Positions 730 to 6,700 of a stretch of 64,000 bases of DNA are shown one piece after another. The stretch lies in NCBI RefSeq assembly GCF_056712565.1, contig NZ_CM160072.1. One strand, given 5' to 3'. The stretch's first letter is position 1, and every line of letters starts with the position of its first letter. The position numbers are program-made.

Positions 730-3700
730 AAAAAGCCCCTCTCCTCACGGAGAGGGTTTGGGTGAGGGAAAAGCCTCACCCCAGCCCTCTCGGGTAAAAA
801 CATTGATGAAGGTTAATACTATGAAAGCATTACATTTTGGCGCAGGTAATATCGGTCGTGGCTTTATCGGTAAACTGCTGGCGGACGCGGGTATCCAACT
901 GACGTTTGCCGATGTAAATCAGGTGGTACTTGATGCCCTGAATGCCCGTCATAGCTATCAGGTTCATGTGGTCGGCGAAACCGAGCAGGTGGATACCGTT
1001 TCTGGCGTCGATGCCGTCAGCAGCATTGGCGATGATGTCGTTGATCTGATTGCTCAGGTCGATTTAGTCACTACCGCCGTTGGCCCTGTCGTGCTGGAAC
1101 GTATTGCTCCGGCCATCGCCAAAGGGCTGGTGAAACGTAAAGAACAAGGTAATGAATCCCCACTGAACATCATCGCCTGTGAAAACATGGTCCGCGGCAC
1201 CACGCAGCTGAAAGGCCATGTGATGAACGCCCTGCCGGAAGATGCCAAAGCGTGGGTAGAAGAACACGTTGGCTTTGTTGATTCCGCCGTTGACCGCATC
1301 GTACCGCCTTCGGCTTCGGCAACTAACGATCCGCTGGAAGTGACGGTAGAAACCTTCAGCGAATGGATTGTCGATAAAACGCAGTTCAAAGGCACGCTGC
1401 CAAACATCCCTGGCATGGAATTAACCGACAATCTGATGGCATTTGTCGAACGTAAACTCTTCACCCTGAATACAGGTCATGCTATAACCGCGTACCTCGG
1501 AAAACTGGCCGGTCATCAGACCATTCGTGACGCAATTCTCGACGAGAAAATCCGCGCGGTGGTAAAAGGGGCAATGGAAGAAAGCGGCGCGGTACTGATC
1601 AAGCGCTACGACTTTGATGCTGACAAACATGCGGCATACATCCAGAAAATCCTCGGTCGTTTCGAGAACCCGTACCTGAAAGATGATGTAGAACGCGTAG
1701 GCCGTCAGCCGCTGCGTAAACTGAGTGCTGGCGACCGTCTGATCAAGCCACTGCTCGGAACCCTGGAATATGGTCTGCCACATAAAAACCTGATTGAAGG
1801 TATTGCCGCTGCAATGCACTTCCGCAGTGAAGATGACCCGCAGGCTCAGGAACTGGCAGCGCTGATTGCCGACAAAGGCCCACAAGCCGCGCTGGCACAG
1901 ATTTCCGGTCTTGATGCCAACAGCGAGGTTGTATCCGAGGCGGTAACCGCTTATAAAGCAATGCAATAATGGTGGACCAGGCGCAGGATACCCTGCGCCC
2001 GAATAACAGATTGTCAGATATGCAGGCAACAATGGAACAAACCCAGGCCTTTGAAAACCGTGTGCTTGAGCGTCTGAATGCTGGCAAAACCGTGCGAAGC
2101 TTTCTGATCACCGCCGTCGAGCTTTTGACCGAGGCGGTAAATCTTCTGGTGCTTCAGGTATTCCGCAAAGACGATTACGCGGTGAAGTATGCTGTAGAAC
2201 CGTTACTCGACGGCGATGGTCCGCTGGGCGATCTTTCTGTGCGTTTAAAACTCATTTACGGGTTGGGCGTCATTAACCGCCAGGAATACGAAGATGCGGA
2301 ACTGCTGATGGCATTGCGTGAAGAGCTAAATCACGACGGCAACGAGTACGCTTTTACCGACGACGAAATCCTTGGACCCTTTGGTGAACTGCATTGCGTG
2401 GCGGCGTTACCACCGCCGCCACAGTTTGAACCTGCAGACTCCAGTTTGTATGCAATGCAAATTCAGCGTTACCAACAGGCTGTACGATCAACAATGGTCC
2501 TTTCACTGACAGAGCTGATTTCAAAAATCAGCTTAAAAAAAGCCTTTCAAAAGTAAGTACTTTCGCTTACTTCTCCTCTACCTGTTTCGGACGATAAAGC
2601 TGACGATAATACTCCAGACGTTGTAGATATAACGGCACGCTTTCATCAGGTATTCCGGACGGAATCGCGTTACGGGGAGGTAGTTTTTTCAGATACTCCC
2701 GGAACGCCTGGCTGGATGCCATGAAATCTACGGCTTTATCGATAAGAAGCGGAACGTTTTCACCTAATTTGCCCATGATGATATCTCCGTATTACCCCGC
2801 GCCGGGAATGCGCGGCCGCCAATTTTAGTTTAGATCCCGATATAAATGACATTAAGGAAAACGTGCTCAATCCTCAATAATCACCTGCTTCTGTTGACTA
2901 TCTTTTTTCTTTAAATTTCTTAACTAATCAATGTATTGGGTGATTTTTTAACGCATTAATGGTTACAATCTGGAACTATTACAATGCCATCAGTTGTGAA
3001 CAAAGCACCTGGTCGCGCATACTAGAGGCTATAAATTTATCTCTATCAGAAGTCATCACATGAAAGAAGTCGAAAAAAACGAAATCAAACGTCTCAGCGA
3101 TCGTCTGGACGCCATCCGTCACCAGCAGGCCGATCTATCGCTGGTTGAAGCCGCAGACAAATATGCCGAACTGGAAAAAGAGAAAGCCACGCTGGAAGCA
3201 GAAATTGCTCGCCTGCGCGAAGTTCACAGCCAGAAACTCAGCAAAGAAGCGCAGAAACTGATGAAGATGCCGTTCCAGCGTGCAATCACCAAAAAAGAGC
3301 AGGCTGATATGGGCAAACTGAAAAAAAGTGTTCGCGGACTGGTGGTTGTGCACCCAATGACCGCGCTGGGCCGTGAAATGGGCCTGCAAGAGATGACAGG
3401 GTTCTCAAAGACTGCGTTTTAAGTTCCTTTCTCGTCGCTGTAATCACAGCCTCTCACCATTTACTCGCTCCTGCTGGCACATGCAGGAGCCTGTTTCAGA
3501 GATCGAATATTTATAACGTTCTTAACATTATATATTCAATCTCCTCTATTCTTTTTAGCGCACATGCCAGGCTAAATTCTGAAAATCAGGTACAAATTAA
3601 AGAACGATGTATCAATATTAACAATGAATTTCCGCATATCAATGCTTGAAACATAATTAATTATTTAAATTTTTCAATCAGCTTCGCAAATTCCACAATA

Positions 3701-6700
3701 AAACATCACTCAACTGAATATTTATCTTTCCCCGCCCTGTGCCTTTATCCGGTGAAACATTTGACATCGATTGACACCGATCATTAAAATCCGCGCGATT
3801 AATATTATTGGCTACAAACTGAAATCGTTTGACATTTAATAAAATATTCGCACAACCAATTAATACAAAAACTCTCTAACAAATTTATTTTGCGGATATG
3901 CCCCACTCCAATCATTCATAAAAAAAATGATTGTGCCGTAATTATCAACTGTATCGGGATTATGAAAAGGAATTCATCCTATGAACCTAAAGAAAACACT
4001 GTTAAGCGTGTTAATGATATTGCAACTTTGCTTATTGGTAGGGTGTGACTATATTGAAAAAGCGAGTAAGGTCGACGATCTCGTTACACAGCAAGAGTTA
4101 CAAAAAAGCAAAATCGAGGCGCTTGAAAAACAACAATAACTCGACAAGCGCAAGATAGAACACTTTGAAAAACAACAAATTACCATCATAAACAGTACCA
4201 AAACGCTCGCTGGCGTGGTGAAGGCAGTTAAAGACAAACAGGACGAATTTGTCTTTACAGAATTTAACCCGGCACAAACCCAATACTTCATTTTAAATAA
4301 CGGTTCTGTTGGTTTGGCAGGGAAAATACTGTCTATTGACGCAGTAGAAAACGGCAGCGTTATTCGTATTTCACTGGTTAACTTATTAAGTGTTCCTGTA
4401 TCAAATATGGGTTTCTACGCGACATGGGGGGGAGAAAAACCCACCGACATCAACGCATTAGCAAAATGGCAGCAATTGCTATTTAGTACCTCAATGAACT
4501 CCTCCCTGAAATTATTACCAGGTCAATGGCAAGACATTAATTTGACGCTAAAAGGTGTCTCGCCCAACAACCTCAAATATCTGAAATTAGCCATCAACAT
4601 GGCAAATATTCAGTTCGACCGTCTTCAACCTGCTGAATCTCCACAGCGGAAAAACAAAAAATAAATGCAGCTTCTGCGCTTATATCAAGGAATAGAGAGC
4701 ATCAATAATGAACAAAATATTTAAAGTTATCTGGAATCCGGCGACAGGCAGTTACACCGTTGCCAGTGAAACAGCAAAAAGTCGTGGTAAAAAAAGCGGG
4801 CGCAGTAAGCTGTTAATTTCTGCACTGGTTGCGGGTGGGTTGCTGTCTTCTTTTAGCGTATGGGCAAACGCCGGGAATGACGACGGTCAGGGTATTGGAA
4901 CAGGCACAGGCTGGGTTGCTATTGGTGAAAGCGCAAAGGCAACCGCCTATACAGATAGTAATGGTGCCAGTACTGCGGTCGGTTATAAATCTAACGCCCA
5001 GGGAGTCTGGAGTTCCGCTATTGGTGCACTTACCAGTGCACTTGGTGATTCTTCAATGGCCTTCGGTGTTAATGCCGTTTCAACCGGTCAACGAAGTATT
5101 GCTATGGGTGCATCATCAAGCTCACTCGGTGAGTATTCAATAGCGCTTGGACGATATGCAAGTTCGGGTGGTATGTTTTCGCTCGCGCAAGGGGACAGAT
5201 CCAATGCAGCTGGTTTGAACGCCACTGCGGTGGGGAGTAACAGTAATGCGGCGGGCGCGAAAGCTATTGCGCTAGGAAATGCAGCTAAAGCTACTGAAAT
5301 TATGAGCATTGCTCTTGGTGACACTGCCAATGCCTCGAAAGAATATTCTATGGCGCTGGGAGTAAGTAGCGCCGCATCTGCGGCTAACGCGATTGCCGTA
5401 GGCCGCAACAGTGCTGCGGCAGGCGTAGACAGCCTTGCCTTAGGTAGACTATCCGTAGCCAGCGCAGCAAACGCCATTGCTATGGGTGCAGAGAGCGAAG
5501 CTGCTGAAAATGCGACGGCTATTGGCAATAACGCGCATGCAAAAGGGGTGAATAGCATCGCGATGGGCTCCGGGAGCATTGCCGATAAAGTCAATACTAT
5601 CGCGTTGGGTAATGGCAGCCAGTCTCTGGCAGATAACGCAATTGCTATTGGTCAGGGCAACAAGGCTAATGGCACTGATGCTATCGCTCTGGGTAATGCT
5701 AGCCTGTCGAGCGGCTTAAACTCGATTGCCCTGGGCAAGACCAGTGTTGTCACTGGCGATAATAGTCTTGCGCTTGGTAGTAATACCAATGCCAATGGTA
5801 TTAACTCTGTCGCGCTAGGTGCAGATTCCATTGCGGATCAAGACAATTCCGTTTCTGTCGGCAGTAGCTCATTACAACGCAAGATCGTTAATGTAAAAAA
5901 TGGCGCGATCAAGGCTGACAGCCACGACGCCATTAATGGCTCACAGCTTTATGCCATCAGCGACTCAATAGCCAAAAGGCTTGGAGGAGGCTCATCGGTA
6001 AACCCTGACGACGGTACAGTTAACGCACCAACCTACAATTTAAAAAATGGTAACAAAAATAACGTTGGCAGTGCGCTCACTGTACTTGATGAAAACACCC
6101 TGCAATGGGACCAAATCAAAGGCAAATACAGCGCCGTTCATGGTAGCTCAACGACCAGCGTAATCACTGATGTGGCGAACGGTACGATTTCAGCAGCCAG
6201 TAAAGATGCGGTTAACGGCTCTCAGTTGTATGACCTGCAGCAGGATGCTCTGTTGTGGAACGGCACAGCATTCAGTGCCGCGCACGGCACCGAAGCCACC
6301 AGCAAAATCACTAACGTCACCGCTGGCAACCTGACTGCCAGCAGCACTGACGCCGTTAACGGCTCTCAGCTCAAAACCACCAACGACAACGTGACGACCA
6401 ACACCACCAACATCGCCACTAACACCACCAACATCACCAACCTGACTGACGCTGTTGACAGTCTCGGTGACGACTCCCTGCTATGGAACAAAACAGCTGG
6501 CGCATTCAGCGCCGCTCACGGCACTGACGCCACCAGCAAGATCACCAATGTCAAAGCCGGTGACCTGACAGCTGGCAGCACTGACGCCGTTAACGGCTCC
6601 CAGCTCAAAACCACCAACGATAACGTGTCGACCAACACCACCAACATCGCCACTAACACCACCAACATCACCAACCTGACGGATTCCGTTGGCGACCTTA

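What the first reader, a model, noticed from the sequence alone, without database searches (positions are those of the whole stretch)
3497..3980. Long AT-rich non-coding region upstream of the lipoprotein/adhesin locus
About 480 bp of AT-rich DNA with no ORF precedes the accessory adhesin locus, a pattern typical of xenogeneic silencing (for example H-NS) targets.
Basis: inference. Interest (0 to 1): 0.25.

Follow-up and report, generated by a model that had tools for sequence, protein, structure and literature searches.

The report
H-NS-type silenced promoter region of sadB–upaG
The AT-rich gap is real, but it is the already-studied control region in front of the E. coli SadB/UpaG (EhaG) adhesin operon, whose repression by the nucleoid protein H-NS has been published, so the finding is correct but ordinary.

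Summary
Window 3497-3980 has 31.8% GC against 49.1% for the window. It lies in the yibL–sadB intergenic region (3423-3980). That region is both the longest (558 bp) and the most AT-rich of the 36 annotated intergenic regions in the window. It has no credible ORF, no Rfam match and no unusual RNA structure.

The window matches E. coli ATCC 11775. Downstream lie a SadB-family lipoprotein gene, here a pseudogene with an E53* stop, and a 1583-aa trimeric autotransporter of the UpaG/EhaG/SadA type. This is the known sadBA operon between mtl and lld, which K-12 has lost by deletion.

Eleven alleles, some only 46% identical and one from Pseudocitrobacter, keep the length (542-558 bp), the low GC (27-33%) and a near-consensus sigma-70 promoter: TTGACA, 18 nt, TAAAAT at 3761-3790. 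This is the only site matching 11 of 12 positions in the 64 kb.

Published work reports that hns deletion derepresses upaG. Overproducing the H-NS antagonist TosR induces the CFT073 orthologue c4423 about 34-fold, with a predicted site that maps to 3653-3681. The H-NS reading is therefore supported, and it is already known. "Xenogeneic" is loose, because the locus is syntenic across genera.

The parts
3060..3422 (+). yibL (DUF2810, ribosome-associated protein), the upstream flanking core gene
   Evidence: Pfam DUF2810 at E 6e-32. RefSeq annotation.
3467..3490 (+). yibL 3' hairpin (GCTCCTGC, 8-nt loop, GCAGGAGC), terminator-like. It belongs to yibL, not to the AT-rich tract.
   Evidence: Read from the sequence. 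Conserved block 3464-3492 in the alignment, with a different but equivalent stem in Pseudocitrobacter. Not called by the terminator scan because the T-run is short.
3497..3980 (.). AT-rich regulatory region (the finding): an upstream AT tract, a core promoter and a ~183-nt leader of the sadB-upaG operon
   Evidence: GC 0.318. Longest and most AT-rich intergenic region of the window. Length and low GC are kept in all alleles.
3570..3587 (+). Conserved block GGCTAAATTCTGAAAATC, with core [AT]TCYGAAAAT invariant or nearly so in 11 alleles. The binding factor is unknown.
   Evidence: Sliding conservation of at least 0.88. Invariant columns in A1. Present as ATTCCGAAAAT in Pseudocitrobacter.
3653..3681 (+). 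Longest pure A/T run (22 nt, 3653-3674) and the published putative TosR (PapB-family) AT-rich motif. Likely NAP/anti-silencer site, about 130 bp upstream of the predicted start.
   Evidence: A/T run. Motif ATAATTAATTATTTAAATTTT(T)CAATCAG is listed for c4423, 299 bp upstream of the ATG, in Table S2 of PMC5956150.
3761..3790 (+). Predicted sigma-70 core promoter: -35 TTGACA (3761-3766), 18-nt spacer, -10 TAAAAT (3785-3790). Inferred transcription start near 3797-3798.
   Evidence: 11 of 12 match. It is the only site at 11 of 12 or better on either strand of the 64 kb, and 2% of composition-matched simulations reach this. ATTTGACA and TCATTA(A/G)AAT are invariant in 11 alleles including another genus. 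The transcription start is not mapped.
3910..3932 (+). Leader inverted repeat AATCATTCAT-A8-TGATT, conserved in most alleles and in Pseudocitrobacter but not in EHEC/B-type alleles
   Evidence: The leader as a whole folds no better than shuffles (z -0.39).
3967..3971 (+). Shine-Dalgarno AAGGA, 9 nt before the sadB ATG
   Evidence: Sequence. Conserved.
3981..4664 (+). sadB-family inner-membrane lipoprotein gene (the TAA export helper). Here it is a pseudogene, with GAA to TAA at codon 53 (4137-4139).
   Evidence: The intact Nissle orthologue matches PDB 4C47 (SadB) at E 7.5e-68. PGAP flags 'internal stop'. Alignment A2 shows E at this position in all other alleles. GC 0.396.
4708..9459 (+). UpaG/EhaG/SadA-type trimeric autotransporter adhesin (1583 aa), 43 bp after sadB and presumably co-transcribed
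   Evidence: Pfam ESPR, YadA_head x13, YadA_stalk x12 and YadA_anchor. Orthologues are annotated upaG/ehaG. No terminator-like site in 2800-4800.
3424..9513 (.). Segment absent from E. coli K-12 (the sadBA deletion). The right junction lies in REP-type repeats upstream of lldP.
   Evidence: BLAST and pairwise alignment of the K-12 yibL-lldP spacer against the window. Described as a 5-kb K-12 deletion in PMC3953254.

Best explanation
The AT-rich stretch is the transcriptional control region of the sadB–upaG (ehaG/sadA-type) adhesin operon. It contains a strong, near-consensus sigma-70 promoter (3761-3790) about 190 bp upstream of the sadB start codon. About 260 bp of very AT-rich DNA lies upstream of that promoter. 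An AT-rich leader and the AT-rich sadB gene lie downstream.

The most likely mechanism is that H-NS, possibly with StpA, nucleates on the AT tracts and oligomerises or bridges across the promoter, keeping an intrinsically strong promoter silent under laboratory conditions. Expression would then need relief of silencing, for example by PapB-family proteins such as TosR or by environmental signals.

Shown here: the composition, the anatomy, the conservation of the promoter, the identity of the operon and the K-12 deletion. Taken from the literature: derepression in hns mutants and induction by TosR in orthologous strains. Inferred: the exact transcription start, the H-NS binding geometry, and that the same holds in this strain.
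For: Composition: GC 0.318, and the longest and most AT-rich intergenic region of the window.

Operon identity: synteny mtlADR-yibT-yibL / sadB-TAA / lldPRD, SadB homology to PDB 4C47, TAA domains, and a 43-bp gap with no terminator.

Promoter: the only site matching 11 of 12 positions in 64 kb. It is invariant across 11 alleles whose overall identity falls to 46-55%, including Pseudocitrobacter.

Selection on architecture: IGR length is 542-558 bp and GC is 0.27-0.33 in every allele.

Literature:
- H-NS represses UpaG/EhaG, and hns deletion derepresses upaG.
- TosR overproduction raises c4423 by log2 5.1, with a motif equal to window 3653-3681.
- SadA is not expressed in culture and its native inducing conditions are unknown.
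- Salmonella sadB (STM3690) falls 4.2-fold in a fur mutant in which hns rises 3.1-fold.
Against: No H-NS binding data exist for this strain, and the primary paper could not be read, so I do not know which fragment was tested.

The canonical high-affinity H-NS motif TCGATAAATT is not enriched. The region has one hit at 2 mismatches, and the window count of 79 compares with 71 expected.

Predicted intrinsic curvature is only modest, with the peak near 3859 at the 3.5th percentile of the window. The model parameters were recalled from memory.

The transcription start is unmapped, and weaker promoters nearer the ATG cannot be excluded.

The Salmonella fur/hns correlation is indirect.
Confidence: 0.78

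Rival explanations
1. This is an ordinary AT-rich promoter region controlled mainly by specific transcription factors (for example FNR, Fur, a PapB-family activator, or an unknown factor at the conserved blocks). H-NS would play no direct role, and the reported hns effect would be indirect.
For: Conserved non-promoter blocks at 3570-3587 and 3910-3932 suggest site-specific factors. Salmonella STM3690 is listed as FNR- and Fur-responsive, with a predicted Fur box. There is no canonical H-NS motif.
Against: A 68% AT tract of ~480 bp, extended by a 60% AT gene, is far beyond the pooled intergenic composition of this window (55.6% AT). Published statements say H-NS represses UpaG/EhaG. TosR-type proteins are proposed to act by countering H-NS/Lrp. 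Specific factors and H-NS are not mutually exclusive.
Confidence: 0.13
2. The gap hides an unannotated gene: a small RNA, a small protein or leader peptide, or the decayed remnant of a former gene.
For: At 558 bp it is unusually long for E. coli. Small ORFs of 20-52 aa exist on both strands. Promoter-like hexamers occur on the minus strand.
Against: There is no Rfam match even at E up to 1. The putative leader folds no better than shuffles, z -0.39. Alleles differ by many indels and substitutions, so no ORF is conserved. Conservation is confined to short promoter-like and operator-like blocks.
Confidence: 0.05
3. The AT-rich DNA is a scar or junction of a recently acquired mobile island (truly xenogeneic DNA), with no regulatory design.
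For: The locus is absent from K-12. Alleles diverge abruptly just after yibL although the YibL protein is identical. REP repeats lie at the right junction.
Against: The sadB gene is present in 4149 of 5426 complete E. coli genomes, always chromosomal. The position is the same in Salmonella and Shigella and in Pseudocitrobacter. There is no similarity to phages or true plasmids. No integrase, tRNA or IS flanks it in this strain. The promoter is conserved across genera.
Confidence: 0.04

Closest known systems
upaG (UPEC CFT073/Nissle) and ehaG (EHEC O157:H7) promoter regions, H-NS-repressed (Totsika et al. 2012, AEM 78:2179; Valle et al. 2008, J Bacteriol 190:4147)
   Same: It is a positional orthologue: yibL, a long AT-rich spacer, the sadB-like gene, the TAA, then lldP. 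The Nissle upaG upstream region is 96% identical. EHEC-type alleles share the same promoter hexamers, length and AT content.
   Different: This strain's TAA is 1583 aa and is annotated only as 'YadA-like'. Its sadB carries a nonsense codon. EHEC-type upstream regions are only ~46% identical outside the promoter block. The primary paper could not be read here.
sadBA operon of Salmonella enterica (Grin et al. 2014, PMC3953254)
   Same: Same gene pair, same mtl–lld location, and a ~44-bp sadB–sadA gap. It is silent in culture, and the K-12 deletion is described there. SadB structure 4C47 matches at E 7.5e-68.
   Different: The Salmonella upstream sequence was not retrieved here. That paper did not study the native promoter.
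Other H-NS-silenced E. coli adhesin promoters (upaC, upaH, F9 fimbriae, tos, cryptic chaperone-usher operons)
   Same: All have AT-rich upstream DNA, are silent in laboratory culture, are derepressed in hns mutants and are relieved by PapB-family or other antagonists.
   Different: Those loci are mostly on genomic islands or are strain-specific. This locus is at a conserved chromosomal position across genera.

Membership tests
H-NS (xenogeneic-silencer) target region | AT content well above the genome/intergenic average over several hundred bp | tested here: met
   68.2% AT over 484 bp, against 50.9% for the window and 55.6% for pooled intergenic DNA. Lowest 1.8% of windows. The adjacent sadB gene is 60% AT.
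H-NS (xenogeneic-silencer) target region | Derepression of the downstream genes when hns is deleted | not testable with these tools
   Reported for upaG/ehaG by Totsika et al. 2012, as cited. The primary paper is not held. Not tested in this strain.
H-NS (xenogeneic-silencer) target region | Physical H-NS occupancy (ChIP/EMSA/footprint) | not testable with these tools
   K-12 ChIP data cannot cover the locus because it is deleted there. No data set for this locus was found in the held library.
H-NS (xenogeneic-silencer) target region | High-affinity nucleation motif tCGATAAATT (consensus of Lang et al. 2007, recalled from memory) | tested here: not met
   One match at 2 mismatches in the region (3668-3677, minus strand). 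The window-wide count of 79 is no greater than shuffles at 71 +/- 8. The motif is not obligatory for H-NS binding.
H-NS (xenogeneic-silencer) target region | Intrinsic DNA curvature near the promoter | tested here: inconclusive
   A wedge-model path (parameters recalled from memory) gives a modest bend centred near 3859, at the 3.5th percentile of the window. The region mean is unremarkable.
H-NS (xenogeneic-silencer) target region | Foreign (horizontally acquired) origin of the silenced DNA | tested here: not met
   Syntenic in Escherichia, Salmonella and Shigella and in Pseudocitrobacter. Present in 76% of complete E. coli genomes. No phage or plasmid similarity. Allelic replacement within the locus is evident, so some alleles may be imported.
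Sigma-70 promoter | -35 and -10 hexamers with 16-18 nt spacing | tested here: met
   TTGACA-18-TAAAAT, 11 of 12 positions. Unique at that score in 64 kb. 2% of simulations reach it.
Sigma-70 promoter | Conservation of the hexamers and their spacing in orthologous regions | tested here: met
   Invariant in 11 alleles and species amid 46-70% overall identity.
Sigma-70 promoter | Mapped transcription start | not testable with these tools
   No TSS data were found. The start is inferred at ~3797-3798.
sadBA / upaG-ehaG operon | SadB-family lipoprotein directly upstream of a trimeric autotransporter, between the mtl and lld operons | tested here: met
   The gap is 43 bp. sadB is a pseudogene here (E53*).
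Known RNA family (Rfam) | Covariance-model match | tested here: not met
   No match at E up to 1 in 2500-5000, both strands.

The most novel reading that the evidence does not exclude
The upstream region may be more than generic AT-rich DNA. It could be a length- and geometry-constrained silencing and anti-silencing module. Alleles that have diverged to ~46% identity still keep 542-558 bp, 27-33% GC, an identical strong promoter, an invariant [AT]TCYGAAAAT block ~190 bp upstream, and (in most) a leader palindrome. This could mark a dedicated, still unidentified regulator or a fixed H-NS bridging geometry that sets when the adhesin is made. The inducing conditions for SadA/UpaG remain unknown.
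Probability: 0.15. Interest if true: 0.35.

Novelty: already known. Interest (0 to 1): 0.1.

Why it matters
It matters little beyond annotation. The locus, its K-12 deletion, the SadB helper and H-NS repression of UpaG/EhaG are all published.

The useful additions are practical:
- a precise candidate promoter (3761-3790) and conserved operator-like blocks, which could guide reporter and footprint experiments to find the still-unknown inducing signal of this widespread adhesin;
- the note that the ATCC 11775 lineage carries a nonsense codon in the export helper sadB.

Tried and rejected
- **Rfam.** An E-value-mode scan of 2500-5000 found nothing.
- **Leader structure.** Folding the putative 183-nt leader gave no excess structure, z -0.39.
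- **H-NS consensus.** TCGATAAATT at up to 2 mismatches was not enriched.
- **IHF consensus.** WATCARNNNNTTR had no site in the region.
- **Curvature.** The model gave only a modest bend. Its parameters came from memory, so it is used only as a relative measure.
- **Small ORFs.** Those of 20 aa or more are not conserved.
- **Repeats.** The TTGACA-containing direct repeat (3762/3820) and several AT-rich palindromes are not conserved outside the B2-type alleles, so I did not interpret them.
- **Mobile-element origin.** There are no phage hits. The two 'plasmid' hits are 4.9-Mb records that are evidently chromosomes.
- **Primary papers.** Totsika 2012 and Valle 2008 are not held, so I relied on secondary citations.
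- **Cross-genus scan.** The genome-contig scan with the SadB alignment returned only 7 loci and missed Salmonella, because the peptide patterns were too specific.
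Full report
**Where the window comes from**

The window is 100% identical over the queried stretch to the chromosome of E. coli ATCC 11775 (NZ_CP033092.2). 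In that record the order is mtlA-mtlD-mtlR, yibT, yibL, a 'hypothetical protein, internal stop', a 'YadA-like family protein', then lldP-lldR-lldD. The finding (3497-3980) lies in the gap between yibL (3060-3422) and the pseudogene (3981-4664).

**Checking the observation**

- GC is 0.318 for 3497-3980 against 0.491 for the window. Only 1.8% of all 484-nt windows are as low.
- With the RefSeq gene table, the yibL–sadB gap is the longest (558 bp) and the most AT-rich (GC 0.346) of 36 intergenic regions, whose pooled GC is 0.444.
- ORFs in the gap are at most 52 aa and are not conserved.
- There is no Rfam hit at E up to 1.
- The low-GC tract continues through the lipoprotein gene to about 4700.

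**What the downstream genes are**

The 227-codon gene at 3981 has a lipobox (LLVGC|D) and, in its intact Nissle form, matches Salmonella SadB (PDB 4C47) at E 7.5e-68. RefSeq calls the orthologues 'SadB/YajI family lipoprotein' or 'DUF3251'. In this strain codon 53 is TAA, where seven other alleles have GAA or GCA. The exact 61-mer with this stop occurs in 124 of 5426 complete genomes.

Forty-three bp downstream starts a 1583-aa protein with ESPR, 13 YadA-head, 12 YadA-stalk and one YadA-anchor matches. Its orthologues are annotated upaG (Nissle) or ehaG. This is the sadBA operon described by Grin et al. It is conserved between the mtl and lld operons in Escherichia, Salmonella and Shigella, and it is deleted in K-12.

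I reproduced the deletion. The K-12 yibL–lldP spacer aligns to the window up to 3423 and resumes at ~9513 in REP-type repeats. The sadB gene is found in 4149 of 5426 complete E. coli genomes, always on the chromosome.

**Anatomy of the AT-rich region**

I collected upstream regions from nine E. coli or Escherichia alleles, one E. coli-like MAG contig, and Pseudocitrobacter vendiensis, then aligned them. Identity to the window falls to 69-70%, 55% (Pseudocitrobacter) and 46% (EHEC/B-type), even though the YibL protein is identical in the EHEC-type strains.

Despite this divergence, every allele keeps a 542-558-bp gap with GC 0.27-0.33 beyond the yibL hairpin. Conservation collapses to a few blocks:

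- the yibL hairpin;
- GGCTAAATTCTGAAAATC (3570-3587);
- a ~45-bp block at 3753-3795;
- a leader palindrome (3910-3932, absent from EHEC/B-type alleles);
- the ribosome-binding site and start codon.

The 3753-3795 block is a near-consensus sigma-70 promoter: TTGACA (3761-3766), 18 nt, TAAAAT (3785-3790). It is the only site matching 11 of 12 positions on either strand of the whole 64 kb. A site this good arises in 2% of composition-matched simulations of the region. The inferred start near 3797 gives a ~183-nt leader that folds no better than shuffled sequence (z -0.39).

**How it most likely works**

A strong promoter embedded in 68% AT DNA, in front of an adhesin operon that is not expressed in culture, is the classic arrangement of an H-NS-silenced promoter. 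Four lines from the literature agree:

- Reviews and later papers cite Totsika et al. 2012 for H-NS repression of UpaG/EhaG and for 'hns deletion derepresses upaG'.
- In CFT073, overproduction of TosR, a PapB-family protein proposed to counter H-NS/Lrp silencing, raises c4423 (the sadB orthologue) by log2 5.1.
- The AT-rich motif that study predicts ~300 bp upstream of the c4423 ATG is the sequence at window 3653-3681. That stretch contains the longest pure A/T run of the region.
- In Salmonella, sadB (STM3690) drops 4.2-fold in a fur mutant in which hns rises 3.1-fold. This evidence is indirect.

I therefore take the region to be the operon's promoter plus an H-NS nucleation and spreading platform that extends into the AT-rich sadB gene.

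The evidence falls into three classes:
- Shown here: the composition, the anatomy and the conservation.
- From the literature on orthologues: the hns and TosR effects.
- Inferred: the start site, the binding geometry and transfer to this strain.

**What does not fit neatly**

- The TCGATAAATT high-affinity motif is not enriched.
- No IHF consensus site lies in the region.
- Predicted curvature is modest (with parameters recalled from memory).
- 'Xenogeneic' is not well supported. The locus is syntenic across genera, has no mobile-element similarity, and is missing from K-12 by deletion. The abrupt allelic discontinuity after yibL does suggest that the whole IGR+sadB+TAA cassette is exchanged by recombination.

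**Rival explanations**

- Specific-factor control without direct H-NS action. This is possible and not exclusive, given the conserved blocks and the Fnr/Fur array data.
- A hidden sRNA, small ORF or decayed gene. Nothing supports this.
- A mobile-island scar. contradict it.

**Verdict**

The finding is real and correctly interpreted, but it describes a published situation. Novelty is 'already known' and interest is low. The only mildly new points are the exact conserved promoter, the unexplained conserved blocks, the conserved length of the region, and the lineage-wide sadB nonsense codon.

Noticed in passing
window 4137-4139 (within 3981-4664): The sadB-family gene has a GAA to TAA nonsense change at codon 53. 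The exact 61-mer with the stop is in 124 of 5426 complete E. coli genomes, flagged as a pseudogene in those records inspected. The TAA export helper is thus lost in a whole lineage, with possible polarity on the adhesin gene.
   Followed up: partly
window 3423-3980 vs L007/L008/L010: The YibL protein is identical between this strain and the EHEC-type strains L007/L008. Yet the DNA right after its stop codon is only ~46% identical, while the length (542-558 bp) and GC (0.27-0.33) of the gap are preserved. The IGR+sadB+TAA unit behaves like a swapped allelic cassette.
   Followed up: partly
window 3570-3587 and 3910-3932: Two conserved blocks have no assigned factor. One is [AT]TCYGAAAAT, ~190 bp upstream of the -35. 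The other is a leader palindrome, AATCATTCAT...ATGATT, which is also present in Pseudocitrobacter.
   Followed up: partly
window 3957-3971: Two GGA motifs lie about 11 nt apart, at and just upstream of the Shine-Dalgarno sequence (cGGGAttatgaaaaGGAa). This resembles a CsrA-type dual site. EHEC-type alleles have three GGAs in the same place.
   Followed up: no
window 3791-3797: The spacer between the -10 and the inferred start is GC-rich (CCGCGCG). It is conserved in most alleles and in Pseudocitrobacter. This feature is associated with ppGpp/DksA-sensitive promoters.
   Followed up: no
window 37263-37674: The second-longest and second most AT-rich intergenic region of the window (412 bp, GC 0.376) is the divergent waaA–rfaQ region. 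The LPS core genes at roughly 27.9-33.3 kb form the other main low-GC troughs.
   Followed up: no
window 9460-9560: REP/BIME-type repeats follow the adhesin gene, and the right end of the K-12 deletion falls inside them.
   Followed up: partly
L006 (NZ_CP195347.1) 3047-3800: In one E. coli strain the upstream region is cut about 48 bp into the AT-rich tract by an IS1. A fimbrial usher/chaperone cluster follows in place of sadB-TAA.
   Followed up: no
L014, L015, L017; H123, H124: MAG contigs labelled Oscillospiraceae, Collinsella and Bacillota carry E. coli-type sadB sequence (with yibL upstream in L014 and L015), which suggests mis-binning. Two PLSDB 'plasmids' of 4.9 Mb are evidently chromosomes.
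   Followed up: no
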